IMG/VR virus record: IMGVR_UViG_2529292920_000018
Location: 1-64,000 of that record
DNA: 64,000 nt
Reading direction: 5' to 3' (one strand)
Origin: a virus
Lineage: Duplodnaviria; Heunggongvirae; Uroviricota; Caudoviricetes
Below, piece by piece: positions 1 through 41,837 of the stretch. The position numbers and the translations under genes are program-made. The notes under the pieces are model-generated. The model ran no database searches and had not been told where the DNA came from. It saw nothing but the letters and a program-made list of their open reading frames with translations. Positions within the stretch are counted from its first letter, which is position 1. Each line of letters starts with the position of its first letter.

Positions 1-495
1 AAAGACGAAAACGTTGGTTTAGGAGAAGGCTCTGCACTGCCCGTTGGTGTGCCCGTTCCGTGGCCCTTAGCAACACCACCAACGGGCTGGCTGAAATGTA
101 ACGGTGCAGCATTTTCTTCTGAAATGTACCCCAATCTGGCAAAAGCCTACCCCACCAATAAATTACCGGATTTACGGGGCGAATTTATTCGTGGCTGGGA
201 TGATGGGCGAGGAATTGATGCGGCACGCGCTTTATTGAGCATTCAAAACGGGATGTTGGAAAAACATCGCCATATTGTTGTAGCTAACGATGGATATGAC
301 ACAAAAGATGAATGGGAGTTGGCTACGATTTTCAAAAAAACATATACACAAGGCAGGGGGCTTGATGCCACAAATACAGGAGGGAGTTTGATTCCATCAC
401 CAACGCTTCATTCACGAGGAAGTATTGGTAACACAGGTGGTAGTGAAACCCGCCCCCGCAATATTGCATTTAACTATATCGTGAGGGCGGCTTAG
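1..495 (+). CDS. Alternative tail-fibre C-terminal (receptor-binding) segment, silent in this orientation
   Basis: Open frame from position 1; first ~85 aa near-identical to the C-terminal part of the fibre at 1111-2562 then divergent; ends ETRPRNIAFNYIVRAA. Confidence 0.6.
   Translation, partial: KDENVGLGEGSALPVGVPVPWPLATPPTGWLKCNGAAFSSEMYPNLAKAYPTNKLPDLRGEFIRGWDDGRGIDAARALLSIQNGMLEKHRHIVVANDGYDTKDEWELATIFKKTYTQGRGLDATNTGGSLIPSPTLHSRGSIGNTGGSETRPRNIAFNYIVRAA
4..29. other. Din-family (gix/pix-like) invertase crossover site, left boundary of invertible tail-fibre segment
   Basis: gacgaaaacgttggtttaggagaagg; inverted copy of the site at 1559-1584; lies at the constant/variable junction (LGLGE) of the fibre. 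Confidence 0.5.
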
Positions 496-501
496 TTATA
501 T

Positions 502-1111
502 TCAACTGGCTGATGCCAGTGGTATTTCCGGCAAGTTGATATCTGGTGCCATGTTTATATCCATTGCGTTCAGCGCGTCTATATAATCCAGCACGGCATT
601 AAGCCGGGTGGTTTCTGCCTGCGTCAACTTCCGCCCGGCCCGCAACTTCAACTGAATCAGACTTATGGAATCCATTGCCGCATCAGCCAGTGACTGGCGC
701 TTGGTTTCTGCCGCTTCTACTGCGGCACGATGTTGTACCTCAGTATCTGTCACCCATTTTTCACCATCCCATTTATCGTATGGTGTTAACGGGGCGATAG
801 TGGTTGTATTTTCGGGTAGTCACCCAGCGCCGTGATTTCTTCGGTGTTTCCCGTGTCAGTGCTATAGACGGTTTCACCACGATGGTCTGGCGCATACTCC
901 CATGAATTTAAATCCTCCGAACGGCGAATAGCATAGCCAGATTTATGTGCGCCTGGGGCATCTAAACAGGAATTAGCCGGAATACCAACACCCACAGCAA
1001 GATATTCAGTTGATTCGGAAATATATTCCCGTGTCTCACCATCATAGTTATAAACGACGATGTTTCCTGCCTGTACGGCATAAGGTCATCATTTAATATC
1101 GCGTTATTCAT
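502..1111 (-). pseudogene. Tail fibre assembly protein (TfaE-like), disrupted by two frameshifts
   Basis: Homology to the intact Tfa at 43090-43683 is split over three reading frames (ORFs 786-995 and 502-753 plus an 11-codon N-terminal stub overlapping the fibre stop). Confidence 0.55.
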
Positions 1112-2562
1112 TATGCGGTTCTCACAATATAATTGAAGGCAATATTGCGTGGGCGGTTTTCATTCCCATCTGAGGATTCCGTTCTGTATTGACTGGTAAA
1201 TCTACCGTTAATTGCACCTTGCCGGACGGCATTATCTGTCGACAACAGACTATCCCCTCTTTTGTCATTTGGCACCAGTACCGTGTTATCCCACGCATCC
1301 CATGACCGAATATTATGATAATGACTTCCTGTTAACCACCCCTGCATGCTTAAGATGCCCCTTCCGGCATCCACCCCGCGCCCATCATCCCAGCCACGGA
1401 TAAACTCACCGCGTAAATCAGGTAATTTTAACGTTGGGTAAACCTTTGCCAGATTTGGGTACATTTCAGAAGAAAATGCTGCACCGTTACATTTCAGCCA
1501 GCCCGTTGGTGGTGTGGCTGAGGGCCATGGAACAGGCACACCAACGGGCAGTGCAGAGCCTTCCCCCAAACCAAGGTAATTGAGGACTTCTTTTATACTG
1601 CCCATAGCGATAATAGCGCGACCAATAGCTGTAAGGGTTGTCAGTGCTGCGCGGTCTGCTCCGGTAAAATAAGGCAACCGATCTGCTGCAGTGGCAAGTC
1701 CTGCCAGAGCAGTGAGCGTGGCATCTGCCGGTTGTTTTCCGTTTGCCAGATCGTATGCAGCCTTGACCGCTTTCGGTGTGGCGGCCAGTATTTCAGACGT
1801 GCTGTTGATGTCACTGCTCAATTGTACGGTGCCTTTTGCCGTCAGCGAGGCAGCAGGCACTCCCGTTATCTGACTCCACGGGTGAGTGTGGCTGACGGGC
1901 GCCTTGCCGGCTGCAAGGTCGTATGCAGCCTTGACCGCCTTCGGCGTGGCAGCCTCAGTTTCTGATTGACTGTCCGTGGCGCTGCTCAGTTGTACGGTGC
2001 CTTTTGCCGTCAGCGAGGCAGCAGGGACTCCCGTTATCTGACTCCACGGGTGAGTGTGGCTGACGGGCGCCTTGCCGGCTGCAAGGTCGTATGCAGCCTT
2101 GACCGCCTTCGGCGTGGCAGCCTCAGTTTCTGATTGACTGTCCGTGGCGCTGCTCAGTTGTACGGTGCCTTTTGCCGTCAGCGAGGCAGCAGGCACTCCC
2201 GTTATCTGACTCCACGGGTGAGTATGGCTGACGGGGGCCTTGCCGGCAGCCAGGTCATATGCAGCCTTGACGGCCTTTGGTGTGGCGGCCAGCGTTTCAG
2301 AGGTGCTGTTGGTGGCACTGCTCAGTTGGGTGAACCCCTTAGCTGTCAGTGTCGCGTCCGGGTGGTTACGGGAACGTACGTGTTCAGCCAGTGACTGTGC
2401 GGCTTCCTCCGTTTTTTTCTTCAGCCATTTCGTCCTGTTTGCCAGTTGCCGGGGGGCTCGATTTGATATCCCGTCTGCACCACCCAGAACCGGATCTGAT
2501 GTCTCCAGTTGATAGATATTTTCTTCCCACTTTTCTGTTTCATTCAGGTTTCCCATAATCAA
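1111..2562 (-). CDS. Tail fibre protein (Mu S / P2 H-like) with invertible C-terminus
   Basis: 483 aa; 56-aa tandem repeats of the phage tail-fibre repeat type; C-terminus ends NRPRNIAFNYIVRTA. Confidence 0.85.
   Translation of the reverse strand: MIMGNLNETEKWEENIYQLETSDPVLGGADGISNRAPRQLANRTKWLKKKTEEAAQSLAEHVRSRNHPDATLTAKGFTQLSSATNSTSETLAATPKAVKAAYDLAAGKAPVSHTHPWSQITGVPAASLTAKGTVQLSSATDSQSETEAATPKAVKAAYDLAAGKAPVSHTHPWSQITGVPAASLTAKGTVQLSSATDSQSETEAATPKAVKAAYDLAAGKAPVSHTHPWSQITGVPAASLTAKGTVQLSSDINSTSEILAATPKAVKAAYDLANGKQPADATLTALAGLATAADRLPYFTGADRAALTTLTAIGRAIIAMGSIKEVLNYLGLGEGSALPVGVPVPWPSATPPTGWLKCNGAAFSSEMYPNLAKVYPTLKLPDLRGEFIRGWDDGRGVDAGRGILSMQGWLTGSHYHNIRSWDAWDNTVLVPNDKRGDSLLSTDNAVRQGAINGRFTSQYRTESSDGNENRPRNIAFNYIVRTA
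1559..1584. other. Din-family invertase crossover site, right boundary of invertible segment
   Basis: ccttcccccaaaccaaggtaattgag; reverse complement shares core ttggtttgggggaagg with site 4-29. Confidence 0.5.
1700..2350. repeat. 168-bp tandem repeat, about 3.5 copies, inside tail fibre gene
   Basis: Motif tcccgttatctgactccacggg recurs at 1861, 2029 and 2197; encodes the 56-aa unit AKGTVQLSSATDSQSETEAATPKAVKAAYDLAAGKAPVSHTHPWSQITGVPAASLT. Confidence 0.8.
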
Positions 2563-3137: not shown

Positions 3138-4233
3138 CAGACACTCCAGTCATGTTAAGAGTGATTGCCGTACAGTTTGCCCATTCGTTTTCTGCCACCA
3201 CCCGCAGTGCCGGTGTCACCAGTTCAACCTGGTACACCCCGGAAACGGACAATGCACTGATAATCTGGCTGGGGACAATATCGCGCCCCAGCGTGGCGGC
3301 ACGTGATGCCACCCAGTTCTGTATGGCGCTGTTAGCGGCATCTTTTACAGACCTGGCATCCTGATCACGATAGATCGTAATCTTGGCTTCAATGGTGTAA
3401 TCCACCTTCACTGGTGTTTTAGCCCGCACTGTATCAGTGAGTGGCCTGACTTTCTCATCAGAGCAGAAACTCTCTACCAGCGTGAGAACACCGCCGTCCG
3501 GCAGACCGGTACTGAGCAGCGGATACAGATCTACGGTCCCGGGAACCGGGGAAAGCACAGCAACATCGACAATGTTGGGATGGGCCTGCATGGCATGAAA
3601 GCGGTATGCGCCACGGCTTCCGGCATTGGTGAATGACTCCGGGGCCAGCCTGATACGCTCCCGGAGCCTGTCATCGTCTTCCTGTTCTGAACCGCCGGAA
3701 CTGGCCGTCAGATTGCTCACCAGCAGGTCGACGTTATCAATCTCATCGAGTAACTGACTGACCTGCGCAGGTTGCCAGCCGTTACCAGCGGTACCGGGTT
3801 CGGTACAGGTGGACGTGACATTGACCAGCAGCAATCCGGCCTTCAGTACCACATCTGTATCGGTGGCAAAAATAACGCTGTCGGAAGCGCTGACGCGGGT
3901 GCCTGCCGGGATCAGCACATCAATGGCCAGTGCCTCATCTACGGAGAACTGGAGCGTGGTAGTGGCAGGCTGCGCGGCAAGACGGTATACACCGACCAGT
4001 TCACCGAGGTAATCAATCATCGGCTCACGGGCAAAGGCGACCAGATTCTGCTTTGCTGCCTCCTGTACCGCAACCCTGACCAGCATTTCGCGATAGGCCC
4101 ACAGATCAATCAGCAGACGTTCTGCCTGTGCCGGGTACAGCGTTTTGCCGGTATCCGCTTCATACTTCGCAATCATTTCTGCCGTGATTTTGTCGGCATC
4201 GCGTTCAATAAAATCGGGTTCTGTCAGCGCCAT
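3130..4233 (-). CDS. Baseplate J-like protein (Mu gp47-like)
   Basis: 367 aa; synteny and resemblance to the J-like protein at 45883-46791. Confidence 0.75.
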   Translation of the reverse strand: MALTEPDFIERDADKITAEMIAKYEADTGKTLYPAQAERLLIDLWAYREMLVRVAVQEAAKQNLVAFAREPMIDYLGELVGVYRLAAQPATTTLQFSVDEALAIDVLIPAGTRVSASDSVIFATDTDVVLKAGLLLVNVTSTCTEPGTAGNGWQPAQVSQLLDEIDNVDLLVSNLTASSGGSEQEDDDRLRERIRLAPESFTNAGSRGAYRFHAMQAHPNIVDVAVLSPVPGTVDLYPLLSTGLPDGGVLTLVESFCSDEKVRPLTDTVRAKTPVKVDYTIEAKITIYRDQDARSVKDAANSAIQNWVASRAATLGRDIVPSQIISALSVSGVYQVELVTPALRVVAENEWANCTAITLNMTGVSDD

Positions 4234-4571
4234 AGCAGCTCCTGAGTCCGGGTCTGTCCGTCTGAGCCTTTCCAGCTCACCCGGAGCGTAAGATGTTCGC
4301 CGTCGACGGCGGGTTTAACTGACATAAGCTGGCAGCGGGGCTCCCAGCGCCGGATGGCATCGACGGATTCGCGCACCACATGCGGAATGGCCCGGTCTAC
4401 AGGCCAGTCGATATAAAGATGCAGATTGCTGCCGAACTCCGGGCGATGCGGGTCGCTGCCGCGGGGAGTCCGCAGGATAATTTGAATCGCCTGCCGGATA
4501 TCATCCAGCCCCCGGACAATTTCGCCGGGAGCCTGCAGGGTCGGTTGCCAGAATACTGAGGTTGTTTTCAT
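4224..4571 (-). CDS. Baseplate protein, GPW/gp25-like (Mu gp46-like)
   Basis: 115 aa; pattern similar to the gpW-like protein at 46796-47143. Confidence 0.7.
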   Translation of the reverse strand: MKTTSVFWQPTLQAPGEIVRGLDDIRQAIQIILRTPRGSDPHRPEFGSNLHLYIDWPVDRAIPHVVRESVDAIRRWEPRCQLMSVKPAVDGEHLTLRVSWKGSDGQTRTQELLWR

Positions 4572-4625
4572 GGGGGCAGTATTGCCCCCGTGCGGGAACG
4601 CTGATATTAAAGGCGTTTAAAAAGC

Positions 4626-10901: not shown

Positions 10902-10998
10902 GATTGTGCTCCTGTGTAAGTTCAGGGCAGTATGTCGGGAGAAGCGCGTGACGGATATTAAAGGAGATTAAGAAGAAGGGGCCGGAGCCCCTGTGATG

Positions 10999-11280
10999 TC
11001 AGCAAGTGCGAAACCCCTTGCAGTTACGCAGGAAAGCGATGAGAAGCGTCTTTCCCTCAGATTTGCCGATGCCGGAGAACCAGTGGTCGGGAGGCTCCCA
11101 TGCTTCAATCAAATCCGCCAGTTTGCGGGCCTTTGAACGTGTGCAGTCAATCGGGTCATTGGTTTTACGGGTATTAAAAAGGGTTTCCACCCCCGGAATA
11201 TCAAGGAGGGTAAACCACGTACCATTTGACATGCCCAGTGCCGCACATCGTCCTCCTTTATCCGTCAGTTCAACACTCAC
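10999..11280 (-). CDS. Hypothetical protein (extra ORF between tube and chaperone)
   Basis: 93-aa ORF; start overlaps the tube gene stop; no recognised family. Confidence 0.4.
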   Translation of the reverse strand: MSVELTDKGGRCAALGMSNGTWFTLLDIPGVETLFNTRKTNDPIDCTRSKARKLADLIEAWEPPDHWFSGIGKSEGKTLLIAFLRNCKGFRTC

Positions 11281-14731: not shown

Positions 14732-15685
14732 TTATTTACTGATACCGGTAATGAGATACCCGGCATCGCCACCAACCACGGCGACTTTGTAGATATCGGT
14801 ATAACGGCAGTACTTCACCTTGCCACCGGCTCCGTCGTATTTGTCGGCAACAGGCATCCCCTTACGCCGCAGGGTGTAGCCGAAGGACGGCTCGTTCTCG
14901 TCCGCGCTGTCCGCCCCCGGCTGCGGTTTGCCGACATAGTGCAGCATCAGATTGTCTCCCCAGATATCCGCCGGCACGCTGTTCTTATCCATTGCCGCTT
15001 TCATGGACGGCAGGGAGACTGGGGCACCGATGACGATCTCTTCGATCTGAAAGAGGTCCTGCAGGATTTCTTTGGTGATGCGCTTGCGTTCGTTGGCTCC
15101 GATGGCGGCCTGAATCGCCGGGTGGAACTTCAGCAGCGCCATCACGCCGGCCCCCATGGTCATCAGGTTAGGACGCAGCCCCGTGGCCGTACGGACCGCT
15201 TCCATACCGGCTTCAATCACCCCGATGGGGTCCCCCTTACCACCGGCCCAGCGATCACTGGCTGTCAGTTTTTTGACGTGCCCGGTACGGTAGACCTTTT
15301 CATCCTGAGCCAGACGGGCAGCGATAAGTTCACGGCGCAGGTTCACGCCATTCGTGGCGCGACGGATGGCCTTGCTCTCTTCGTTAAACATGGACTCCGC
15401 CTGCTCGCGATAGTCCACCGGCGCAGCCAGATCGTGTTCACCCAGCACCAGGTCCAGCGTGCCTGTTTTTTCACGGACCAGAACATTGCTGTCCGCCCCG
15501 ACGGCACGCTCGGTGTCATATTCCACAAAGGCGGTTTTCCCGAAGGTCGGTACACGCACGCCTTCCTTGTCCGTCAGCACGACGGGGAAAATACGTTCGC
15601 CGATGAATGCGGCATTTTTATAGCCACGGGCGATACTGGTCAGTACCGGATCAACGACACGTTTACCTTTTAAGTAATCAGACAT
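14732..15685 (-). CDS. Major capsid protein (Mu T-like)
   Basis: 317 aa; follows protease/scaffold gene. Confidence 0.8.
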   Translation of the reverse strand: MSDYLKGKRVVDPVLTSIARGYKNAAFIGERIFPVVLTDKEGVRVPTFGKTAFVEYDTERAVGADSNVLVREKTGTLDLVLGEHDLAAPVDYREQAESMFNEESKAIRRATNGVNLRRELIAARLAQDEKVYRTGHVKKLTASDRWAGGKGDPIGVIEAGMEAVRTATGLRPNLMTMGAGVMALLKFHPAIQAAIGANERKRITKEILQDLFQIEEIVIGAPVSLPSMKAAMDKNSVPADIWGDNLMLHYVGKPQPGADSADENEPSFGYTLRRKGMPVADKYDGAGGKVKYCRYTDIYKVAVVGGDAGYLITGISK

Positions 15686-15699
15686 GCTCTCTCCTTAAA

Positions 15700-16815
15700 T
15701 TACAGGCAGCGTGCGACAGCAGCCTCATAGCTGATGCCTTCTTTTTTGGACAGGGCCACTGCTTTCTGATGCAGGGCCAGACGCTCAGGATCGGCTTCCG
15801 CAAACTCTGCCACATCCACCTTCACCGTGTCGCCGACACGCTCTTTTGTGGCCTGTTCGGCGAAATTCATCACCGGCTCCCCGTCGGAGAGCAATGAACG
15901 AAAGGCGGTGGCCAGCGGTGTGCGGCTTTCCCCCTCAGCAAACTCCACCGGCTTGTCGCCACCGGCAACGGCATCCAGCAGGGCAACCACCACGGAGGAG
16001 GCGCGGGGAGCCAGACGGCCCTCTGCGACCAGTTTTTCTGCAAAGGCCACATTGTCCTTATGCAGTTGCTCCTGTCTGACCTGTGCATCACGCGCATCGC
16101 GATCAGCAGCCTGCTGCTTCAGGCGGCGGTTCTCCTCCTGAAGGGCTTCAATCTCTTCTTTTGTCATCGATGATTCCTCGTTACTTGCGGAAGACGGCCC
16201 CGGGCCTGTCTCACTGAATTGTGCACCTGCTGCATCCTGCGACAGTGTGTCGCGGTACGCCTCTTCGCGCAGACTGTTGAGCTGCCATTCCGGCAGGACT
16301 TTTTCTGCCTCGTCCAGACTGAAGCGGGCGATCAGAAAATCGCGCAGCTTTCCCCACAGGGAGGCATTCGTGATGGCCTGCCAGTCGGCGAACTCCACCA
16401 CACCTTCTTCCTGCTCACTGAAGGACACCTGTTTCAGCCCCTTGACGGAAGGTGGCTGTGCCCCGAGAAAGCCCACATGGCGAAGGTAGAGCACGCCGGG
16501 CTTCGGATTGGACGGTGAATCCGGGAGGTAGAAAGAGGCGGACACTTTTTTGAATCGTCCGTCGGTGACCATCTCAGCAAACTGCGGGTCCAGCTGGGCA
16601 GGCTCTGCCATCAGATCGACGCCGCTGAGCGACAGGGCTTTCACCCAGCCCCACGCCGGGTCTTCCGTTCTGGGATGACCAATCACGAGTGGTGCTTCAT
16701 GGACGGACGGGTCATAGGCTTTCACGCAGGCGGCAAGATCGTCTGGCGTGAACGGCAGTTTTTTGCCGTGCATATCGGTATGAGTACCGGCTTTAAAAAT
16801 GTGAATGGCTGACAT
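15700..16815 (-). CDS. Head maturation protease / scaffold (Mu I-like)
   Basis: 371 aa; charged coiled-coil C-terminal region typical of a scaffold. Confidence 0.7.
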   Translation of the reverse strand: MSAIHIFKAGTHTDMHGKKLPFTPDDLAACVKAYDPSVHEAPLVIGHPRTEDPAWGWVKALSLSGVDLMAEPAQLDPQFAEMVTDGRFKKVSASFYLPDSPSNPKPGVLYLRHVGFLGAQPPSVKGLKQVSFSEQEEGVVEFADWQAITNASLWGKLRDFLIARFSLDEAEKVLPEWQLNSLREEAYRDTLSQDAAGAQFSETGPGPSSASNEESSMTKEEIEALQEENRRLKQQAADRDARDAQVRQEQLHKDNVAFAEKLVAEGRLAPRASSVVVALLDAVAGGDKPVEFAEGESRTPLATAFRSLLSDGEPVMNFAEQATKERVGDTVKVDVAEFAEADPERLALHQKAVALSKKEGISYEAAVARCL

Positions 16816-17029
16816 TTTGCTGTCCCGCGTTATGTTGTCGGAGACAGTTTGTGAGAAATGCAGGCCCGGCGATTTTAATCTGCTTTAGAAAACATCAGGG
16901 GAGAAGGACAGGGAAAGCAATACGGTGAACCGGAGGCGGTTATAAAACAGAGGCTGTAAAGCCTTTATAAAGGTAATACAGCCCCTCATTCGCTGGCAAT
17001 GATAAATCACCCGCCTGAAGAGAGAAAAC
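16816..17029. promoter_or_regulatory. Intergenic region between G-like and I-like genes: candidate late promoter and/or strong gyrase site
   Basis: The only sizeable non-coding gap in the late module; Mu's strong gyrase site lies between G and I at the genome centre. Confidence 0.3.
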
Positions 17030-17488
17030 TCAGCGACGGGCCGCTGATTCAAGATGGCGGACAATGGTATCGAGGATGGGGATTACCACTTCAGGCTGTA
17101 GTTCTCCATCCCCCGTCACCGGCAGGAACGGGCGGGCCGGAAGTTCAACAGACTCATTACGCCCCGTTTTACCCCCGAACTGGTGAATGGCACCGTAAAC
17201 AACGTTGGTCCCCACAACAGCCTGCCGGTCGTCATGGTCGGTTGATACTGACCCCATCAGACGCCCGGTATCCTGCAGTGTCTGCCCGTCACGTTCTTCC
17301 GCTGCCAGCGAGGGCATCCACCCCGGACGCCCCTCATCAAGAAAGTTAAACTGTGTTTCCGCCAGCAGGGTTCCGGCGATTTTGCGCATCGCGGGCTCCA
17401 GGTCTGTGGCAGCAAGATCCAGCGCACGGAGGCTCCGGCGCAGGGATTTATCGTTAATGGTGATACTGACCAGGTTATCGGAAGCCAT
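17030..17488 (-). CDS. Virion morphogenesis protein (Mu G-like)
   Basis: 152 aa; motif HQFGGKTG...LPARPFL shared with the P2 gpS-like protein at 47842-48294. Confidence 0.7.
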   Translation of the reverse strand: MASDNLVSITINDKSLRRSLRALDLAATDLEPAMRKIAGTLLAETQFNFLDEGRPGWMPSLAAEERDGQTLQDTGRLMGSVSTDHDDRQAVVGTNVVYGAIHQFGGKTGRNESVELPARPFLPVTGDGELQPEVVIPILDTIVRHLESAARR

Positions 17489-17490
17489 TG

Positions 17491-18312
17491 TTATCCTCTC
17501 AGTTCCTGTTGTGCCAGTGGCTGAAGCGTACCCTGATAGCGGGCCAGGTCGGGACGGTATGCTGCCCCCGGTGCATAAGACCAGCCGACGTCGGTGGTCA
17601 CCTTCGTGGTGCCGGTATTAAAGGTGGCCACGTTCCGCATTTCGCCGGTTTTCTCTGAGACCAGTTTCAGTTCCTGGCCCATGGCAGAGCCGGAGCTGAT
17701 AACCTTCAGGCCACGGGCACGTACATCCGCCGCACTCAGGGCAATCACACTACAGCGGCAGCGCCAGCCGTTCGGCGGGTAAAATGCCTGCCAGAACGGG
17801 TCATCCCAGCGCAGCACCAGACCATGCAGCGCCAGATGGCTCCTGCGGGTATGGCTGTCGTTGATGCCGGTATACATCCAGTACGGCCTGTCGTCGACGT
17901 TTTCCATCTGTTCCGCCCAACGACCGGCGCTGTAGAGTACGGACATATTGGTGCGAAAGATGGTATCGAGCCGCCACGGACTGCCCTGCTGAATGGTGAC
18001 CGGCTTACCCGTTACCGGGTCAGTCGTGTCACGTGGTCCCCACCATCCCTTACGCTTCAGCACCGGCTCCAGCTCCTGCCGGAACCAGCGATCGGTTTTT
18101 CCTTCATCGACAGCCTGCTGCAGTGCCCCGCGAATATCTTCCAGGATATCCAGGCGGGTCACTTTAGCAACGGTAAAGGCGCGGGCATGGGCCTCCTGCC
18201 ACATTTCTTCCCAGTCCCAGGTAATCTGATACCCTTTGGACTTCAGGTAACTGACTGCCCGCTTCGGGGGAAGCGTCATGCAGTACGCCAGTTCAGCCGT
18301 TGTCACGCTCAT
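17491..18312 (-). CDS. Head morphogenesis protein (Mu F-like)
   Basis: Downstream of portal; start taken at MSVTTAELAY. Confidence 0.7.
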   Translation of the reverse strand: MSVTTAELAYCMTLPPKRAVSYLKSKGYQITWDWEEMWQEAHARAFTVAKVTRLDILEDIRGALQQAVDEGKTDRWFRQELEPVLKRKGWWGPRDTTDPVTGKPVTIQQGSPWRLDTIFRTNMSVLYSAGRWAEQMENVDDRPYWMYTGINDSHTRRSHLALHGLVLRWDDPFWQAFYPPNGWRCRCSVIALSAADVRARGLKVISSGSAMGQELKLVSEKTGEMRNVATFNTGTTKVTTDVGWSYAPGAAYRPDLARYQGTLQPLAQQELRG

Positions 18313-19789
18313 GCAGACGTCCCCGGATATTTGCCACAAAGAGAATACGGGCCAGCCGTTCCTGCAGATCGTCCGTGTTCATCTGAGGGTAGAGCTCCGC
18401 CAGTTCGCCCAGCAGCTCAGTCGGGTTAACCCCGTTTTCGACCCGCTTAAACAGAGGTGCCAGGACGGGTTCCAGCGTGCCATTTAACACACCTCCGTTC
18501 ATCAGAATGTCCAGCGCGTCGTCAAGCTGCTGCTGAGCCTGAATATCGGCATCAATCGCCTCGGCAAATGACAGCGGCAGCATGTTATTCTGGCGTTCCG
18601 ACGGTGGTGTCTCGTCAATATCGCCGTCCTGCAGCTGGTACTCACGCTTAAAGTATTGCGGGGTCAGACGCAGACCCGCCCGGGTGAGTTTTTCGTCGCG
18701 GGTGGCGCGGGTGTCATCAATGGTCTCCTGTTCCCACATGGCCCAGACCGGACACGGCACATCGCCGAAGTTCAGGGTGACCACCGTTCTGATAACCTGA
18801 TTCACTGCTGCCTGAATGATGTCCGCATCCGCATCGCGGATATCAGCCGTTACCTCCAGCCCGGCCTGTGCAGAGGCCTTGTTACTGTTCGCTTCCGTGG
18901 TCTGATTCTGACCAAGTAATGCAATGGAGATCTCACTGCGTGACAGTGTGATCAGCTCGCGGAATACCTCGCTGCTGTCCGCCTTACCATCCGCGGCTTT
19001 GAGTTCGATGCTGCTGTCATCGGGGATGGCGGCCACCGCGTCCTCCACCATCTGCTCCATGGAGTCCAGCAGTTTTTCAATCTCTGCATCATTTGCACCC
19101 CTCGGGTGCTTACCGATCACCCACGGGGAGCCAAACTTTTCGGCAAAGCGGAGCCAGAATTTCATCCCGCCTTTCTTGAAGGCGACCGGCCAGAAGCACA
19201 TGGACAGGTCCGGGAAACCGTAAGGATTGTCATACGAGGCATCCTGTGCCGGCACCACGAATTTTGACGGTGACAGCAGCTCACCCTCCACACCCGCATC
19301 ACGCGCCCGGAAGCGCAGGCAGTTGTCCGTATCAAACTGAAACCACTCAGGCGGTTTGCCGACAATATCCGTCACTGCCCACGCCCTGACCGAACGGCCC
19401 CACATGATTTCACAGGGCTGATACCCGTAGAGCACGGCATCACTCATCTCACCGATGATGCGGGACAGATCCAGATCGTCGAGCATGTCGCGGATGAAAC
19501 GGAAGACCCGGGCAGAAGCGTGACCGCGCTCCAGTCCACGCTCCAGTGATTTGAGCGCTGCTTTACGTCTGCGGATACAGCCCCCGACCAGCGGGTCGGT
19601 GCGCAGTTCGCGGTAGATACGGATATCCCGTCCCTGAGCCTTGAGAATGGGATCAGGATTGGGCAGATACATGCCCAGTCCGTAAAAGTCGATCGCGCGG
19701 CTGCGGGAGGCAATCTGCGCGGTCAGTGATTTCTGAGGCTCAGAAAAAGCAACAAATTCATCGGGTGAAACCCAGATACCCCTCGCCAT
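18293..19789 (-). CDS. Portal protein (Mu gp29-like)
   Basis: 498 aa, immediately downstream of terminase large subunit. Confidence 0.8.
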   Translation of the reverse strand: MARGIWVSPDEFVAFSEPQKSLTAQIASRSRAIDFYGLGMYLPNPDPILKAQGRDIRIYRELRTDPLVGGCIRRRKAALKSLERGLERGHASARVFRFIRDMLDDLDLSRIIGEMSDAVLYGYQPCEIMWGRSVRAWAVTDIVGKPPEWFQFDTDNCLRFRARDAGVEGELLSPSKFVVPAQDASYDNPYGFPDLSMCFWPVAFKKGGMKFWLRFAEKFGSPWVIGKHPRGANDAEIEKLLDSMEQMVEDAVAAIPDDSSIELKAADGKADSSEVFRELITLSRSEISIALLGQNQTTEANSNKASAQAGLEVTADIRDADADIIQAAVNQVIRTVVTLNFGDVPCPVWAMWEQETIDDTRATRDEKLTRAGLRLTPQYFKREYQLQDGDIDETPPSERQNNMLPLSFAEAIDADIQAQQQLDDALDILMNGGVLNGTLEPVLAPLFKRVENGVNPTELLGELAELYPQMNTDDLQERLARILFVANIRGRLHERDNG

Positions 19790-24287: not shown

Positions 24288-24417
24288 GTGTGTCTCCTTA
24301 TCTGGTGGAGACAGCATCACAAATACAGGGCGCGAAGGATTTTAAAGCGCGTTAAGAGAGCCGGGGATACGGGATGTGCAGGATAAACGATGAATTATTC
24401 ACAGAGGAGAATACGAT

Positions 24418-35052: not shown

Positions 35053-35502
35053 ATGCAGAAAAAACGCCTGATACAGCTTATCCATATTGCCCGTAATGAA
35101 CTGGGTATGGATGAAGACACCTACCGCCAGATGTTACAGGGGCTGACCGGTAAAGCCTCAACCAAAGGAATGGATACCACACAACTAAACTGCGTGCTGG
35201 AATCCATGAAAAAGAAAGGCTTTCGCGTTAAACCAGCCAGAAAAGCCAGCTCCGGTTTACCGCTGGATAACCATCCGCAGTCCAGGAAAATTCGTGCGCT
35301 ATGGCTTGAAATGGCTGCTGCCGGCATTGTTCGTGACCGTTCAGAAAATGCATTAGCGAGGTGGATCAAGCGGGAAACGGGCATCAGCGCCCTGCGCTGG
35401 CTCAGTACTGAACAGGCAAGCAGTGTTATTGAGAAACTGAAGAAGTGGCAGCGCAGAGCTGCGGGAGTCAAACATGAGCGACCTGAATCAGTTTCGAAGT
35501 AA
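35053..35502 (+). CDS. gemA: GemA-like protein (Mu gp16-like)
   Basis: 149 aa; immediately upstream of the Mor-like gene as in Mu. Confidence 0.6.
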   Translation: MQKKRLIQLIHIARNELGMDEDTYRQMLQGLTGKASTKGMDTTQLNCVLESMKKKGFRVKPARKASSGLPLDNHPQSRKIRALWLEMAAAGIVRDRSENALARWIKRETGISALRWLSTEQASSVIEKLKKWQRRAAGVKHERPESVSK

Positions 35503-35863
35503 GGGGCCGGAACTCCTGGTGGAACTGGCACAGCATACCTCTGAGACCGTTCGCGAGATTATTGATATTGAGCCCGAAGTTGCCGACCAGATTGGTCAGG
35601 CCGTCGCGAACCGAATGATGCAGGTCTGGGGCGGGCAAAACGTTTATTTCCCGATGGGCATGGTATGGAAGGTCAGTCAGCGCGACCGGGAAATCTTCAG
35701 GGAGTTTAACGGACGCAACCACCACGAACTGGCCCGCAAATTTGGTGTTTCGCTTCAGTGGGTCTACAGCGTGGTTAAGCGGGTAAGAAAAGAAGAACTG
35801 GATCGGATGCAGGGCAAGCTATTTGCTGATGAACCCGATGCAGATACGGAGAAAAAAGAGTAA
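35474..35863 (+). CDS. mor: Mor/C-family transcription activator
   Basis: 129 aa; C-terminal HTH region REIFREFNGRNHHELARKFGVSLQWVYSVVKRV. Confidence 0.7.
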   Translation: MSDLNQFRSKGPELLVELAQHTSETVREIIDIEPEVADQIGQAVANRMMQVWGGQNVYFPMGMVWKVSQRDREIFREFNGRNHHELARKFGVSLQWVYSVVKRVRKEELDRMQGKLFADEPDADTEKKE

Positions 35864-36697
<834 letters not shown>

Positions 36698-36698
<1 letters not shown>

Positions 36699-37177
36699 TA
36701 TCCCGCCCCCGTCATACCCGTGAATTTAGTCGCCATACTGCCAGCCTTACCGATGAGCGATTCCGCCTGTTTACCGATATCGCCATAAAGCGCGGCCAGT
36801 GATTCATCAACGCGGGTGAGCGACAGCGTAAAATCAATTTTCCGGGGTGTGCCATCTGCAAAGAAAATACTCCCTGTTTCACTCACCTTGCTGATGACAT
36901 ACATGCCGTAAATCATGCCGGTGCCATCCAGCAACGGCCACGCCCGCCCCTCCTCTGCCATCAGCCTGAGCGTGGTCATCGTCAGCTTGCCGCCGGTCAG
37001 TTCGGGATAAAGCACACCGGCAAGCGTGATGTTTTCCTCACCCACACCGAGAAACTGAAAAGCGTCCCGTTTACCGATACGGGAATTTGACGGCCAGCGA
37101 TAATCTGATTCACGCTGCATGGTCTGGTGTGGCAGCGTCTGGCGCATAAAAACAAACATACCTAACGCGAGCATCAT
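36698..37177 (-). CDS. U: Tail protein gpU-like
   Basis: 159 aa; P2 order between T and D. Confidence 0.75.
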
Positions 37178-37191
37178 TTTTCGTCACCTCC

Positions 37192-39639
37192 TTAACCGTC
37201 ATGCATCATGCTGGCACGGGCGCGCGCACGTTTATCCCGCTCGTATTTTTCGAGCGCATCCTGTAACTGGCGGTCGAGCTGTGTCCCCGGCGCAGTACCA
37301 CCCGTCAGGCTGATGTGATATTCGTTTTTACTCTGGTCTACATAAGAGCGGCCAGCCGGTGCCGTGACCGGCTGATAAGCCTGATAACCTGCATAAGAGC
37401 TGGTCGCCGGAATATAACCACCGCTGCCATACGTGGCGGCTTGAGTTCTGGCGGCGGTCTGGTCAAGTGTGTCTGACTCTTTGTTGATAACACCGAGTTT
37501 TTCCAGTACCCAGTCAATACCACTGCGCAGTTTGTTGAACGCATTAAGCGGCAGCATCAGCGCGTCAGCCAGTGCCTGCCCAAACATGACGCCCGTGTCA
37601 CGGCAACGGTTCAGGGTGTCCTGGGTGGCTTTGACCGGGGCAATCAGGTTTTTAAACCACTGCCACGCGGCCTGTAACTTTTCACCCAGCCAGTCAAACA
37701 CCGGTTTAAGTGGCGTGAACAGTTCCCCCACCGGCGCAAATGCCGCTTTCAGCCCTTCCACCACACCGCCAAAGAATGCGCTGACAGGCTCCCAGTATTT
37801 ACGGATAAGCAACGCCCCGGCGACAATTGCAGCCACCACGGCCACAACCGGCCAGCTAATCGCCCCGATGGCGGTTATAACAGCACTGCCAACCGTCGTG
37901 AAGATTGCCCCCATTGCGCCTGCTGCCGCGATGATGGCATTGATGCCGGTGATAACCGGCCAGGCTACGAGGCCAATGGCACCGATGACACCAATCAGTG
38001 CCAGTGCACCACCGACAATGATGCCGATGGTTGACGCCAGTGATTTGTTTTTCTGGATCCAGCCGTCGAGTTTTAACACATACTTTGTGGCCGTCTGCGT
38101 GAGATTACGCAGTGCGCCTTCCTGCTGGTCAAACAGGTCAGTCCCCACCGCCTCATAAGCGGACTGAAACTCCTTAAAGTCACCGCCGAGGTTGTCCTGC
38201 ATGATATTTACCAGCTCTGCGGTCTTCCCGTCTGAGGCTTTAAACGCAGCGGTCAGTTTGTCCAGCTTTCCGGTTGAGGCGGCAGTCATCAGCACAGCGG
38301 CGGCTGAGCTGGCCTCCTCCCCGAAAATGGTTTTCATGTATTCAGCCTGCTGGGCAGTACCGAGCCGGTTTTTCTCAAAACTGGCCTGCATTTCTTTCAG
38401 AATGGTAAATATTGGCCGGGTGTTTCCCTTGCTGTCTGAGGTTTTCACTCCAAGCTCTTTGAGTGCATCCCATGCTTTTCCCGTCGGTGCCTGCAGGCGG
38501 CTTAACACGGCACGGCTTCCCGTCCCCGCCATTGAGCCTGTGATTTTTGCATCATGCAGCGCCCCGACCATTGCGGCAGTTTCTTCAATGCTGACACCGG
38601 CATTTTTTGCCACAGGTGCGGCATAGGTCAGCGCATCGCTCATGCCGTCAAAATCGGCGGCGGTTTTGTTCATCGTCATGGAGAGAACATCCCCGATATG
38701 AGCGACCTTATCGTTTGAAAGCTGAAAGGCGGATTTCATCCCCATCAGCAGGGCGGCGTTTTCTTCCATCGTGCGGCGGTTCGCCAGCGCCATATTCAGC
38801 GTGACCGGCGTTGCCGCCTGAATGGCATCAACATCCCCACCCGCTTTCGCGATGATTATCTGTGCACCGGCCGCATCATCCGCCGAGGCGGCGGTATTGT
38901 CGCCGAGCTGGCGCGCCTGTTTGCGTAGTGCGGTCATTTCGGCGGAGTCTTTTGCCACTCCGAGCACGGCCTGCAATTCTGAGTTTTTCTGCGCAAACTC
39001 ATAACCGGGCATCAGCAACTTAACTCCGGTCATCGTTCCCGCCGCCGCAATCCCCACACCGGCAGCGCCTACTGAGGCCATATTTCCGGCCAGTTCCTTT
39101 CCGGCCTGATAACGCTGTTTGACTGCGTTAAGTTTTGCCTGTTGCGCACTGACACGCGCCAGCGCGTCGCGCTGACGGTTAAGCTGTGCGGTGGTTTCAC
39201 TGATACGGTTTTTCAGTCCCTGCTCATCATGTGCAAGATTGCGGGTATTAATTCCCACAGCGGCCAGTTCCCGCTGCTGGCGTTTAACGGAATCTGTCAG
39301 GCGGTTATATTTCGCCTGTAAGTCCTCCGCCGCACGCTTTGCGGATTCCAGCACTTTCGCCTGACCACGGGTCGGACGTTCGGTGTTTTTAAACTGTGTG
39401 GCAAGGGCTTCGGCCTCCTGCCGTGCCTTTTCAAGTGCATGACCAGTCACGGCGAGCTGTGCACTGGTCTTGCGGAATCCCTCAATACGGGATGCCTGAC
39501 CGTTCAGCTCGCGCAGTGATTTTTGTGTTTCCCGGATATCCCCCGACAGCGATTTGCTCGCTGTGCGGATGGATTTAAACGGACGGGATGCCTGGTCAAC
39601 AGCCCTGAGCAATACCTGTAATTTTACATTGTTACTCAT
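37192..39639 (-). CDS. T: Tail tape measure protein (gpT-like)
   Basis: 815 aa; follows the E/E' chaperone. Confidence 0.85.
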   Translation of the reverse strand: MSNNVKLQVLLRAVDQASRPFKSIRTASKSLSGDIRETQKSLRELNGQASRIEGFRKTSAQLAVTGHALEKARQEAEALATQFKNTERPTRGQAKVLESAKRAAEDLQAKYNRLTDSVKRQQRELAAVGINTRNLAHDEQGLKNRISETTAQLNRQRDALARVSAQQAKLNAVKQRYQAGKELAGNMASVGAAGVGIAAAGTMTGVKLLMPGYEFAQKNSELQAVLGVAKDSAEMTALRKQARQLGDNTAASADDAAGAQIIIAKAGGDVDAIQAATPVTLNMALANRRTMEENAALLMGMKSAFQLSNDKVAHIGDVLSMTMNKTAADFDGMSDALTYAAPVAKNAGVSIEETAAMVGALHDAKITGSMAGTGSRAVLSRLQAPTGKAWDALKELGVKTSDSKGNTRPIFTILKEMQASFEKNRLGTAQQAEYMKTIFGEEASSAAAVLMTAASTGKLDKLTAAFKASDGKTAELVNIMQDNLGGDFKEFQSAYEAVGTDLFDQQEGALRNLTQTATKYVLKLDGWIQKNKSLASTIGIIVGGALALIGVIGAIGLVAWPVITGINAIIAAAGAMGAIFTTVGSAVITAIGAISWPVVAVVAAIVAGALLIRKYWEPVSAFFGGVVEGLKAAFAPVGELFTPLKPVFDWLGEKLQAAWQWFKNLIAPVKATQDTLNRCRDTGVMFGQALADALMLPLNAFNKLRSGIDWVLEKLGVINKESDTLDQTAARTQAATYGSGGYIPATSSYAGYQAYQPVTAPAGRSYVDQSKNEYHISLTGGTAPGTQLDRQLQDALEKYERDKRARARASMMHDG

Positions 39640-40646: not shown

Positions 40647-41837
40647 TTAATTGCTGTTAACCGAGGTGACCAGATTTGCCAGGTATTTATCAGTAATACG
40701 CTGGCGCAGGGTCAGGTTTTCAAGAGGAGGCACCGGTGTATAGTCGTAGTCGATATACAGTTTTCCGGCCTTGAGGGTTTCCGCATCGTTGGATTCTTCG
40801 CTGAACCAGCAGGTCGCATCCACGATATAGCCGTTTGTTTTCAGCTCACGGAATTTGGCATTGATGCCGTCAACGATGTCGCGAATCAGCGTTGCGGTGA
40901 TGGGCTTGTCCACCGCCCACATGTGCGCCTCAGCCATCGTGTCGGCCAGCACCTGCGCGGTGCGGGTGTAGTTTTCAAAGAGGAACAGCGGGTCATCAGA
41001 GCAGGTACGGTTACCCCAGAATCGGAAACCGTCGCGGCGAATCAGCGTAGTGACACCTGACTCGTTAAGCAGGTCAGCATCGGTGCCGGACTCCTGCAAA
41101 TCCCAGAATACAGATGCGCTGATGCCGGTAACACCGTTTACCCCGACGTTGGACAGCGTTTTATGCCAGCCCTGCTCCTGGTCGATTTTAGCGCGCAGAC
41201 CCAGCGCACGGGCGGTGGCATACGCGGTGGCGGTGGTACTGGTGACCGTATCCCATGCGAGGAAATCCGGCCAGATGACCATCAGCTCACGCTGGCTGAA
41301 ATTCTGGCGGTAGGCTTTCACCTCGGAAATGGTCTTACAGCCCCATGCGCTGATATATCCGAAAGCACGCAGCTTCTGACAGACTGATGCCAGTGCAACA
41401 GCCACCTCTTTGGTATCCAGTCCCGGCACGCCGAGAATACGCGGTTTAACACCGGTTACCGACTCCGCCGCCAGCAGGGCTTTCAGTCCGGTGTACTGAC
41501 CGTTTTCGTCGGTGGTGCCGATGATATTGGAAACGGTCTGCGCGAGTTTCGTTTCCTCGTCGTCGCCGGTGCCGTCTTCCACACGTACGACAACGGTGAC
41601 CGGTTTTGACTGGTCGGCGATGGCCTGCAACGATGCCGCCAGCGTGCCTTTTTTACCGGCCTTTGCAATTGCACTCTGCACATTGGTAATCAGCACCGGT
41701 TTATTGAGGGGGAAGGTTTCCGCATCCGCATCGCTGGCCGTGCAGACCATGCCGACAATGGCAGTGGATACGGTGGAAATGACGCGGGTGCCGTCGTTAA
41801 TCTCCAGCACCTGCACGCCGTGATGATAGTCACTCAT
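40647..41837 (-). CDS. FI: Tail sheath protein (FI-like)
   Basis: 396 aa; P2 order. Confidence 0.85.
   Translation of the reverse strand: MSDYHHGVQVLEINDGTRVISTVSTAIVGMVCTASDADAETFPLNKPVLITNVQSAIAKAGKKGTLAASLQAIADQSKPVTVVVRVEDGTGDDEETKLAQTVSNIIGTTDENGQYTGLKALLAAESVTGVKPRILGVPGLDTKEVAVALASVCQKLRAFGYISAWGCKTISEVKAYRQNFSQRELMVIWPDFLAWDTVTSTTATAYATARALGLRAKIDQEQGWHKTLSNVGVNGVTGISASVFWDLQESGTDADLLNESGVTTLIRRDGFRFWGNRTCSDDPLFLFENYTRTAQVLADTMAEAHMWAVDKPITATLIRDIVDGINAKFRELKTNGYIVDATCWFSEESNDAETLKAGKLYIDYDYTPVPPLENLTLRQRITDKYLANLVTSVNSN

What the first reader, a model, noticed from the sequence alone, without database searches (positions are those of the whole stretch)
16816..17029. Central intergenic gap between G-like and I-like genes: candidate strong gyrase site
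This 214-bp non-coding gap is the only sizeable one in the tightly packed late module and lies close to the midpoint of the Mu-like prophage if its left end is 1-2 kb upstream of the window. In Mu the strong gyrase site occupies the same G-I interval at the genome centre and is needed for efficient replicative transposition.
Basis: partly seen in the sequence, partly recalled or inferred. Interest (0 to 1): 0.4.

Follow-up and report, generated by a model that had tools for sequence, protein, structure and literature searches.

The report
Late operon boundary in Mu-like prophage
The 214-bp gap is real and sits near the middle of a Mu-like transposable prophage, but it reads as an ordinary boundary between two late operons (terminator-like hairpin plus activator-dependent promoter); nothing in the sequence shows a Mu-type strong gyrase site, although one very conserved palindrome remains unexplained.

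Summary
Window 16816-17029 is a 214-bp non-coding gap on the minus (late-gene) strand. It lies between a Mu-G-family gene and a head-protease gene, is the largest gap in the late module, and is about 0.7 kb (2%) from the inferred centre of a ~36.7-kb BcepMu-like prophage.

The gyrase-site reading gains nothing beyond position. The gap does not align with the Mu G-I interval or with the O157 Sp18-type interval. Those two do align significantly with each other in the SGS right arm. A gyrase-motif matrix I rebuilt from published Topo-Seq data ranks the Mu SGS 2nd-4th in Mu. It gives the gap only 4.3 (rank ~1500). It also misses the Sp18-type gap, so this test is inconclusive. A/T phasing is equally weak in Mu and here.

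What the gap does contain:
- a terminator-like hairpin followed by a U-tract;
- a YTAA-N6-TTAA box with fixed spacing to a -10-like ACTG, present exactly four times in 64 kb, each time before a late operon, and conserved in relatives; a Mor-family activator is encoded in the prophage;
- a leader hairpin before the start codon.

One element is unexplained. CCTTTATAAAG is invariant, and the adjacent G and TTTACAG nearly so, in all 20 enterobacterial relatives aligned; in 68 of 71 IMG/VR contigs carrying it, it sits in this gap.

The parts
17030..17488 (-). G-like virion morphogenesis gene, the last gene of the upstream late unit
   Evidence: PF05069, E 5e-23. It follows Mu-type portal (PF06074) and F (PF04233) genes.
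16816..17029 (-). The 214-bp non-coding gap
   Evidence: A gap of 191-215 bp is kept in 19 relatives from Enterobacterales.
17001..17015 (-). GGCGGGTGATTTATC, a short resemblance to gyrase-core-like sequences, probably chance
   Evidence: It matches the bottom strand of the Mu SGS (GCGG[C/G]TGATTT) and a 12-mer in a Pasteurella Mu-like gap (10 of 200 shuffles). It is not conserved in the Pectobacterium/Dickeya relatives.
16950..16985 (-). 36-bp imperfect palindrome that forms an RNA hairpin (10-bp outer stem plus 4-bp inner stem)
   Evidence: Fold z-score -2.5. The terminator scan also flags part of it.
16962..16973 (.). Perfect 12-bp palindrome CCTTTATAAAGG; its first 11 bp are invariant across relatives and the twelfth (G) differs only in L020
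   Evidence: CCTTTATAAAG is invariant in all 20 aligned sequences. It is unique in the window. The 18-mer CCTTTATAAAGGYTTTAC occurs in 71 IMG/VR contigs, and in 68 of them it lies about 60 bp after a G homologue.
16954..16960 (-). TTTACAG, conserved next to the palindrome
   Evidence: It is conserved (one relative, L025, has two substitutions), including in relatives where it cannot pair with upstream sequence (L013 group).
16940..16949 (-). UGUUUUAUAA, a U-rich tract after the hairpin (terminator-like)
   Evidence: The U-tract is weak in the KP12-type relatives (CGCUUUGCA).
16898..16917 (-). Pyrimidine-rich spacer CTTTCCCTGTCCTTCTCCCC
   Evidence: Mu has a comparable tract, CTTCCTTTCACTTTCTTTCTCC. 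It is poorly conserved among relatives.
16871..16888 (-). Dyad box CTAA-N6-TTAA-AATC, the proposed binding site of the prophage's Mor-family activator
   Evidence: One of exactly 4 matches to YTAANNNNNNTTAAWATC in 64 kb (expected 0.01). The half-sites are conserved while the spacer varies in relatives.
16846..16851 (-). -10-like element CAAACT (conserved core ACTG)
   Evidence: The distance from the box to ACTG is exactly 26 nt in all 20 relatives and identical at all four boxes in the window.
16820..16847 (-). Leader hairpin CTGTC..GACAG just before the ribosome-binding site and ATG
   Evidence: In L020 it is replaced by a different hairpin, CCTGTTT..AAACAGG.
15700..16815 (-). Head maturation protease gene, the first gene of the downstream late unit
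   Evidence: PHROG 976, E 2e-163. It is not a detectable homologue of Mu I.
24338..24355 (-). Second copy of the box, upstream of the holin/lysis operon
10954..10971 (-). Third copy of the box, upstream of the tail-gene unit that starts at 10999..11280
4603..4620 (-). Fourth copy of the box, upstream of the baseplate unit that starts at 4224..4571
35474..35863 (+). Mor-family transcription activator gene, the presumed activator of the four boxes
   Evidence: PF08765, E 1e-43.

Best explanation
The gap is the boundary between two late transcription units of a BcepMu-like transposable prophage whose late genes run on the minus strand. After the G stop codon comes about 45 bp of lineage-variable sequence. 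Next is a 36-bp imperfect palindrome that folds as an RNA hairpin and is followed by UGUUUUAU. This most likely terminates or attenuates the transcript covering lysis, terminase, portal, F and G. About 85 bp further on lies a dyad box (CTAA-N6-TTAA), 26 nt upstream of a weak -10-like ACTG element, with no -35. This is a promoter that depends on the prophage's Mor-family activator and drives the protease and capsid genes. It corresponds to promoter PI, which occupies the same interval in Mu. A short leader hairpin precedes the ribosome-binding site. Shown here: the anatomy, the fourfold recurrence of the box, its conservation, and the presence of the activator gene. Inferred: termination, activator binding and the transcription start. 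The centre of the hairpin, CCTTTATAAAGG plus TTTACAG, is far more conserved than a terminator requires. It probably also binds a protein, which I cannot identify.
For: The box YTAANNNNNNTTAAWATC occurs exactly 4 times in 64 kb. All four are on the minus strand, each in a non-coding stretch before a late operon (expected 0.01). All four lie in identical register with a downstream ACTG. The relaxed box occurs 4-7 times in each related prophage (PhiKM, KP12, DLI.5a), with one at each homologous late-operon start except the KP12 holin. It occurs only twice in 250 kb of E. coli W3110. In 20 relatives the half-sites and the 26-nt spacing are invariant while the spacer changes, for example CTAA-AGCAGA-TTAA versus TTAA-TGGGGG-TTAA. 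A Burkholderiaceae relative with 40% G identity also keeps TTAA-ACAAGA-TTAA. The Mor-family gene is at 35474..35863. The Mu record places a predicted terminator and the C-dependent promoter PI in its own G-I gap. The annotated Pmom region of Mu contains TTAT-N6-ATAA, the same dyad geometry. The hairpin plus U-tract appears (z -2.5). Mu and the Sp18-type prophage have similarly placed hairpins followed by U-tracts.
Against: No transcript data were available, so termination and the start site are untested. The four-hit pattern was derived from the same four sites; the independent support is its recurrence in relatives and its rarity in W3110. The U-tract is poor in the KP12-type relatives. In the L013 group the strong hairpin lies upstream of the palindrome rather than around it, so the terminator reading does not explain why the palindrome itself is invariant. 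Promoter and terminator together account for roughly 135 of the 214 bp.
Confidence: 0.62

Rival explanations
1. The gap, or its first ~110 bp, is a functional analogue of the Mu strong gyrase site. Gyrase would bind the region just after G, wrap the A/T-phased palindromic segment, and supercoil the prophage into one loop so that the two ends synapse efficiently during replicative transposition. This could coexist with the terminator and promoter, as it does in Mu.
For: The gap follows the G homologue, as the Mu SGS does, and lies about 2% off the inferred genome centre, compared with 1.3% for Mu. In Mu and the Sp18-type prophage the terminator-like hairpin coincides with the SGS right arm, and the window has a similarly placed A/T-rich imperfect palindrome. 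WW-dinucleotide power at 10-11 bp in the gap is at the 99.6th percentile of the prophage, like Mu at 99.5. In three relatives the gap holds the locus maximum. A short core-like match, GCGGGTGATTT, lies 17 bp after the G stop; the Mu cut is 20 bp after its G stop.
Against: There is no significant alignment to the Mu or Sp18-type gaps, while those two align with each other. The rebuilt gyrase-motif score is 4.3 (rank ~1500 of ~36,000) against rank 2-4 for the Mu SGS. In 18 relatives the gap never holds the locus maximum, and its best position is not conserved. That matrix also misses the Sp18-type gap (rank ~500-870), so this is weak evidence. The phasing is not significant against shuffles of the gap itself (14-42 of 400), and the holin-upstream region scores the same. 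The core-like match is inverted relative to Mu and absent from the Pectobacterium/Dickeya relatives. Distant relatives have no G-protease gap at all (-4 and -1 bp). A 2023 review states that only the Sakai prophage site could replace the Mu SGS (PMC10052514). From memory only, the tested set included a Salmonella Typhi prophage of this family; I could not verify this.
Confidence: 0.2
2. The invariant CCTTTATAAAGG-TTTACAG element is a specific binding site for a dimeric protein other than gyrase, either a host nucleoid protein or a phage protein. It would regulate the late operon boundary or help organise the prophage.
For: A 12-bp perfect palindrome whose first 11 bp are invariant in 20 relatives whose flanking intergenic sequence is otherwise unalignable. 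It sits at a nearly fixed distance from the G stop (offset 57 or 48). It occupies this location in 68 of the 71 IMG/VR contigs that carry it. It is conserved even where it is not part of a hairpin (L013 group).
Against: No second copy exists in the prophage, even allowing two mismatches, so it is not a repeated operator. By eye I found no convincing match to the IHF, Fis or TyrR consensus sequences as I recall them. No candidate protein is identified. The conservation could instead reflect DNA bending between phased A/T tracts.
Confidence: 0.15
3. The gap is mainly a recombination joint between two modules of different ancestry, with no function beyond carrying the promoter.
For: Upstream genes are Mu-family (Portal_Mu, Phage_Mu_F, gpG family). 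The downstream protease has no similarity to Mu I, and the capsid protein is of the Phage_cap_E type.
Against: The gap's length and several blocks are conserved down to 60-70% G-protein identity. Mere joint sequence would be expected to drift.
Confidence: 0.03

Closest known systems
Bacteriophage Mu G-I intergenic region (strong gyrase site, predicted terminator, C-dependent late promoter PI)
   Same: Both follow a gpG-family gene and are of similar length (196 vs 214 bp). Both lie near the genome centre. Both have a hairpin plus U-tract, a pyrimidine-rich spacer, an activator-dependent promoter for the head protease gene, and an inverted repeat just before the start codon.
   Different: There is no significant sequence similarity. 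The SGS right-arm sequence that Mu shares with the Sp18-type prophage is absent. The activator box is TTAA-N6-TTAA rather than the Mu C-type sequence. The downstream protease is not a detectable homologue of Mu I. Early genes are inverted relative to late genes in this prophage.
Mu Mor/C-dependent middle and late promoters
   Same: A Mor-family activator is encoded (PF08765). The box has dyad symmetry with 4-bp half-sites and a 6-bp spacer, upstream of a weak -10 and with no -35. It is repeated before each late operon, as in Mu with its four late promoters.
   Different: The half-site sequence differs (TTAA rather than TTAT/ATAA in Pmom). The prophage encodes one Mor-family protein, and I found no separate C homologue among the proteins examined, so there may be no middle/late cascade. 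Binding was not tested.
BcepMu-like transposable phages (Bcepmuvirus; Escherichia phage PhiKM, Klebsiella phage KP12 clone 2)
   Same: 99.5% DNA identity to PhiKM and 83% to KP12 across the region. Gene order is the same, with the same gap and the same boxes.
   Different: None of significance. The deposited records do not annotate the gap, and KP12 calls a 41-aa ORF inside it.

Membership tests
Mu-type strong gyrase site (SGS) | Lies in the intergenic interval after the gpG-family gene and before the head protease gene | tested here: met
Mu-type strong gyrase site (SGS) | Central position in the ~37-kb genome | tested here: met
   Inferred about 0.74 kb (2%) off centre, using the Mor-side end at 36025 and the DLI.5a relative for the other end. 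The left end itself lies outside the window.
Mu-type strong gyrase site (SGS) | Sequence similarity to the Mu / Sp18 SGS, especially the right arm | tested here: not met
   Window against Mu: score 25 (same orientation) and 18 (inverted), both within the shuffle range, and the best hit lies in coding flank. Window against Sp18-type: score 21, 44 of 500 shuffles. Control, Mu against Sp18-type: score 34, 0 of 500.
Mu-type strong gyrase site (SGS) | Outstanding match to the E. coli gyrase cleavage motif (Topo-Seq) | tested here: inconclusive
   The matrix was rebuilt by regression on 588 published site scores (cross-validated r 0.88). The Mu SGS ranks 2-4 in Mu. The gap's maximum is 4.3, rank ~1500. 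The functional Sp18-type gap also ranks only ~500-870, so a low score does not exclude function.
Mu-type strong gyrase site (SGS) | Phased A/T bending signals in the arm that wraps the GyrA C-terminal domain | tested here: inconclusive
   Power at 10-11 bp is similar in Mu and the window (2.12 vs 2.02). Both are only borderline against shuffles, and a control promoter region scores alike.
Mu-type strong gyrase site (SGS) | Strong gyrase cleavage, and a requirement for efficient replicative transposition | not testable with these tools
   Needs cleavage mapping and deletion or replacement experiments.
Mor/C-family activator-dependent late promoter | A Mor-family activator is encoded by the same element | tested here: met
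   PF08765, E 1e-43, at 35474..35863.
Mor/C-family activator-dependent late promoter | A dyad-symmetric box upstream of a weak -10, with no -35, repeated before the late operons | tested here: met
   Four boxes in identical register before four late units. The standard sigma-70 scan finds no promoter on the gene strand in the gap.
Mor/C-family activator-dependent late promoter | Box and spacing conserved in relatives while surrounding bases vary | tested here: met
   Found in 20 of 20 relatives with a 26-nt spacing, at the homologous late-operon starts of PhiKM and DLI.5a and three of the four in KP12, and in a Burkholderiaceae relative.
Mor/C-family activator-dependent late promoter | Activator binding and activator-dependent transcription start | not testable with these tools
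   Needs gel shift, footprinting or 5'-end mapping.
Intrinsic (Rho-independent) terminator | G+C-containing stem-loop directly followed by a U-run | tested here: inconclusive
   Met in the window. The U-run is degenerate in KP12-type relatives, and the hairpin sits differently in the L013 group.

The most novel reading that the evidence does not exclude
The invariant palindrome CCTTTATAAAGG-TTTACAG, with its phased A/T tracts at the centre of BcepMu-like transposable prophages, is an undescribed cis-acting site that organises the ~37-kb prophage for end synapsis. It would be a sequence-unrelated counterpart of the Mu strong gyrase site, acting through gyrase or another DNA-bending or bridging protein. 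If so, a central organising site would be a general requirement of transposable phages rather than a peculiarity of Mu.
Probability: 0.15. Interest if true: 0.6.

Novelty: new member of a known kind. Interest (0 to 1): 0.3.

Why it matters
If the gap is only an operon boundary, it adds a usable late-promoter signature (YTAA-N6-TTAA, 26 nt, ACTG) for annotating BcepMu-like prophages, which are common in Enterobacterales. It also shows that central position alone is not evidence of a gyrase site. If the invariant palindrome proved to be a central organising site, the idea that transposable phages need a mid-genome element to bring their ends together could be tested outside Mu itself, with a defined 20-bp target to mutate.

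Tried and rejected
1. Identity to the published 133-bp gyrase consensus, by base or by strong/weak pattern. Rejected because it fails on Mu itself: the SGS ranks 247 and 672.

2. The published position matrix (Sutormin 2019, sheet DS10). It is not held in the stored supplement, so I regressed a symmetric 130-bp matrix on 588 coordinate/score pairs and 250 kb of W3110. It recovers the Mu SGS but under-predicts its score (about 10 against the published 14.3). It misses the Sp18-type gap. I therefore treat it as inconclusive, not negative.

3. WW-dinucleotide periodicity at 10-11 bp. It does not separate the Mu SGS from an ordinary promoter region.

4. Local alignments of the gap to Mu, Sp18-type, Pasteurellaceae, Acinetobacter and Burkholderiaceae G-downstream gaps. 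These gave only a 12-mer (GGGTGATTTATC, 10 of 200 shuffles) and the promoter box.

5. The idea that the gap carries a transposase site. The prophage ends carry GATAAATG repeats, and GATAAAT occurs at 17001-17007. However, 6 copies in the prophage is about the chance number (roughly 4), and the match is not conserved in all relatives.

6. The palindrome as a repeated operator. There is no second copy.

7. The palindrome as a sigma-70 promoter or as an IHF, Fis or TyrR site. Inspection by eye against consensus sequences I recall found no convincing match. This was not a formal test.

8. Rfam search of the gap and flanks. No match at E up to 1.

9. Reading Oram & Pato 2004 and Oram et al. 2006, which tested central sequences from Mu-like prophages. 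Neither paper is held.

Full report
**What the window holds.** Positions 1 to 36025 belong to a transposable prophage of the BcepMu type. The region around the finding is 99.5% identical to Escherichia phage PhiKM (taxonomy line: Bcepmuvirus). It is 83% identical to Klebsiella phage KP12 clone 2 and to Phi06_2974 B. Late genes (lysis, terminase, portal, F, G, protease, capsid, tail) run on the minus strand from about 24.3 kb down to 1.1 kb. Early genes run on the plus strand from about 25.8 to 35.9 kb. They include an rve-type transposase and a Mor-family activator. From 36026 onward lies a P2-like prophage.

**The observation.** The 214-bp gap at 16816-17029 is real. Upstream on the gene strand is a 152-aa protein of the Mu gpG family (PF05069, E 5e-23). 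Before it come Mu-type F and portal genes. Downstream is a 371-aa protein assigned to PHROG 976, head maturation protease (E 2e-163). This protein is 'I-like' only by position and role. It has no Pfam match and no BLASTP similarity to Mu I (E 1.1). The other non-coding gaps in the late module are 54 and 97 bp, so 214 bp is the largest. No Rfam family matches the gap.

**Is it central?**
- The Mor-side end of the prophage is at window 36025 (…TAATCA). Similarity to a related prophage in E. coli DLI.5a stops there.
- In DLI.5a both junctions with host sequence are defined. The element is 36,871 bp long and begins with TGAT at both ends. Its G-protease gap is 891 bp from the centre.
- Transferring that geometry, the other end of the window's prophage lies about 0.7 kb before position 1. 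The centre is then near 17.66 kb, and the gap centre is about 0.74 kb (2%) away.
- In Mu the annotated gyrase cut (17879/17880 of 36,717 bp) is 1.3% off centre.

**Direct comparison with known strong gyrase sites.** The Mu record places three features in its 196-bp G-I gap: the gyrase cut site, a predicted terminator (17908-17953) and the C-dependent late promoter PI (17977-18043).
- Local alignment of the window's gap to this interval gives nothing beyond shuffles in either orientation. The best hit lies in coding flank.
- For a second reference I fetched the Sp18-type Mu-like prophage from an O157:H7 genome. A 2023 review states that the Sakai prophage site was the only one able to replace the Mu SGS (PMC10052514).
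- Mu and the Sp18-type gap align significantly (score 34; 0 of 500 dinucleotide shuffles). The aligned segments sit at the same offset, 48-75 bases after the G stop, which is the SGS right arm.
- The window against Sp18-type scores 21 (44 of 500 shuffles).
- So homology of the Mu type is detectable where it exists, and it is absent here.

**Gyrase motif.** The published 133-bp consensus used as an identity template fails on Mu itself. The published matrix is not in the stored supplement.
- I transcribed 588 cleavage-site coordinates with their published motif scores.
- I fetched W3110 1-250 kb and confirmed the register: G at position 0 in 69% of sites and C at +3 in 66%.
- I then regressed a symmetric 130-position matrix. 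Cross-validated r was 0.88 and rmse 1.4.
- The matrix ranks the Mu SGS 2nd to 4th of 36,600 positions in Mu, although it under-predicts the score.
- In the window's prophage the gap's best score is 4.3 (95.6th percentile, rank about 1500). The best sites lie elsewhere, at 18668 in the portal gene, at 7997 and at 15140-15289.
- In 18 relatives the gap scores 3.3-7.4, never holds the locus maximum, and its best position is not conserved.
- The same matrix ranks the Sp18-type gap only about 500th to 870th.
- The motif score therefore does not reliably mark a functional strong gyrase site. I count this test as inconclusive.

**A/T phasing.** WW-dinucleotide power at 10-11 bp in the gap is at the 99.6th percentile of the prophage, much like Mu (99.5) and Sp18-type (99.2). 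Three relatives have their locus maximum in the gap. Against shuffles of the gap itself the signal is borderline in Mu (24-44 of 400) and in the window (14-42 of 400). The holin-upstream promoter region scores the same. This is compatible with an SGS-like arm but does not discriminate.

**What the gap contains.** Twenty homologous gaps were aligned: the window, KP12 and 18 genomes from Enterobacterales with G-protein identity down to 60%. Gap length is kept at 191-215 bp. Four conserved blocks stand out against otherwise unalignable sequence.
- CCTTTATAAAG(G) followed by TTTACAG.
- TTTTCTAA…TTAA.
- CACTGTC.
- GGGACAGC, just before the ATG.

More distant relatives have gaps from -4 to 240 bp, so a gap is not universal.

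**The promoter.** The second and third blocks form a bipartite element, YTAA-N6-TTAA-WATC, then ACTG 26 nt after the box.
- The same element, in exactly the same register, precedes three other late units in the window: the holin, the tail unit at about 11.0 kb and the baseplate unit at about 4.6 kb.
- The 18-base pattern occurs exactly four times in 64 kb, all on the minus strand, against 0.01 expected. The pattern was derived from these four sites, so independent support matters.
- A relaxed pattern finds 4-7 copies per related prophage, with one at each homologous late-operon start except the KP12 holin, and only two copies in 250 kb of W3110.
- Across relatives the half-sites and the 26-nt spacing are invariant while the 6-bp spacer changes.
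- A Burkholderiaceae relative with 40% G identity keeps TTAA-ACAAGA-TTAA before its protease gene.
- The prophage encodes a Mor-family activator (PF08765, E 1e-43). The sigma-70 scan finds no ordinary promoter on the gene strand.
- The annotated Mu Pmom region contains TTAT-N6-ATAA, the same geometry. That Mu C binds there is established knowledge, which I cite from memory.
- I conclude, by inference, that 16846-16888 is an activator-dependent late promoter for the protease-capsid unit, the counterpart of Mu PI.

**The terminator-like hairpin.** On the gene strand, 16950-16985 is a 36-bp imperfect palindrome that folds into a 10-bp plus 4-bp hairpin. UGUUUUAUAA follows it (z -2.5).
- Mu and the Sp18-type prophage have comparably placed long hairpins with U-tracts. 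In both, the hairpin coincides with the SGS right arm.
- Every subgroup of relatives has a G+C-rich hairpin in the first 60-90 bases after G, but the sequences and exact positions differ.
- This fits a transcription-unit boundary.
- The U-tract is weak in the KP12-type relatives, so efficient termination is not assured.

**The unexplained element.** The centre of the hairpin is a perfect 12-bp palindrome, CCTTTATAAAGG (16962-16973), with TTTACAG next to it.
- CCTTTATAAAG is invariant in all 20 aligned relatives; the twelfth base and TTTACAG each vary in only one relative. This includes the L013 group, where it is not inside a hairpin.
- It starts 57 or 48 bases after the G stop even where the intervening sequence is unrelated.
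- It is unique in the window.
- The 18-mer CCTTTATAAAGGYTTTAC occurs in 71 IMG/VR contigs. In 68 of them it lies about 60 bp after a G homologue and about 158 bp before the protease gene.
- This is more conservation than a terminator needs. It points to protein recognition or to a constrained bend: the neighbouring A/T tracts are roughly in helical phase, most clearly in the Pectobacterium relatives.
- I could not assign a partner.

**Verdict.** The gap is best read as an ordinary late-operon boundary: a terminator-like hairpin, a Mor-dependent promoter and a leader. It corresponds in position and architecture to the Mu G-I interval. Membership in the Mu-type strong gyrase site family fails the one defining feature that could be tested decisively, sequence homology. 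The other sequence-based features are inconclusive, and the biochemical ones cannot be tested here. A gyrase-site function, or another central organising function, is not excluded, and the invariant palindrome is the place to test it. I put the gyrase reading at about 0.2.

Noticed in passing
window 35994-36698 (junction at 36025/36026): The transposable prophage ends at 36025 (…TAATCA) inside gene D of a P2-like prophage. The ORF 35994..36698 (-) matches PF05954 only up to profile position 190 of 305. It is followed by gpU (36698..37177), tape measure (37192..39639) and sheath (40647..41837). So one prophage has transposed into and disrupted another.
   Followed up: partly
window 35990-36025; L004 7773-7830 and 44590-44643: Both ends of the related DLI.5a prophage start with TGAT. 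Each carries GATAAATG 14 bases from the terminus, with a second copy (GATAAATG or GATATTTATG) about 23 bases further in. These are probably transposase-binding repeats. Flanking CCTTG/CTTGC gives a 5-bp target duplication with a one-base ambiguity.
   Followed up: partly
window ~18668 (inside portal gene 18293..19789): The rebuilt gyrase-motif matrix gives its best or second-best score in the whole prophage here (9.9-11.8, similar to its score for the Mu SGS). The site is about 1 kb from the inferred genome centre. It stays high in close relatives but not in the Pectobacterium/Dickeya group. It could be chance, about 6% for a top site to fall that near the centre.
   Followed up: partly
window 14732-17488: The gap is a mosaic joint. 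Portal, F and G are Mu-family proteins. The protease after the gap shows no similarity to Mu I, and the capsid protein matches Phage_cap_E rather than a Mu-T-family model.
   Followed up: yes
window 16820-16847; L020 3090-3125: The inverted repeat CTGTC…GACAG just before the protease start codon is conserved in 19 relatives. In the Dickeya relative it is replaced by a different hairpin (CCTGTTT…AAACAGG) at the same place. This suggests a structural role in the leader or promoter. Mu has an analogous repeat (CTGCTCA…TGAGCAG) before gene I.
   Followed up: partly
L031 3035-3110, L035 3060-3120, L048 3060-3120: The G-downstream gaps of Pasteurellaceae Mu-like prophages contain conspicuous TTTTAAAA-type tracts repeated every 10-11 bp. 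They share ATTTTTTAAAACG and TTTAAA.CGGT.TTTAA with the Mu SGS right arm, so they look much more like Mu's site than the window's gap does.
   Followed up: partly
window 1-1110: A plus-strand ORF with a tail Collar domain (49..495) faces the minus-strand tail-fibre gene (1111..2562). In the DLI.5a relative a recombinase gene lies just beyond. This suggests an invertible tail-fibre segment like the Mu G segment, cut off by the window edge.
   Followed up: no
L144 19656-19735: In the O157 Sp18-type prophage, RefSeq annotates a 'tRNA-OTHER' on the opposite strand between the F and G genes. I did not examine it.
   Followed up: no
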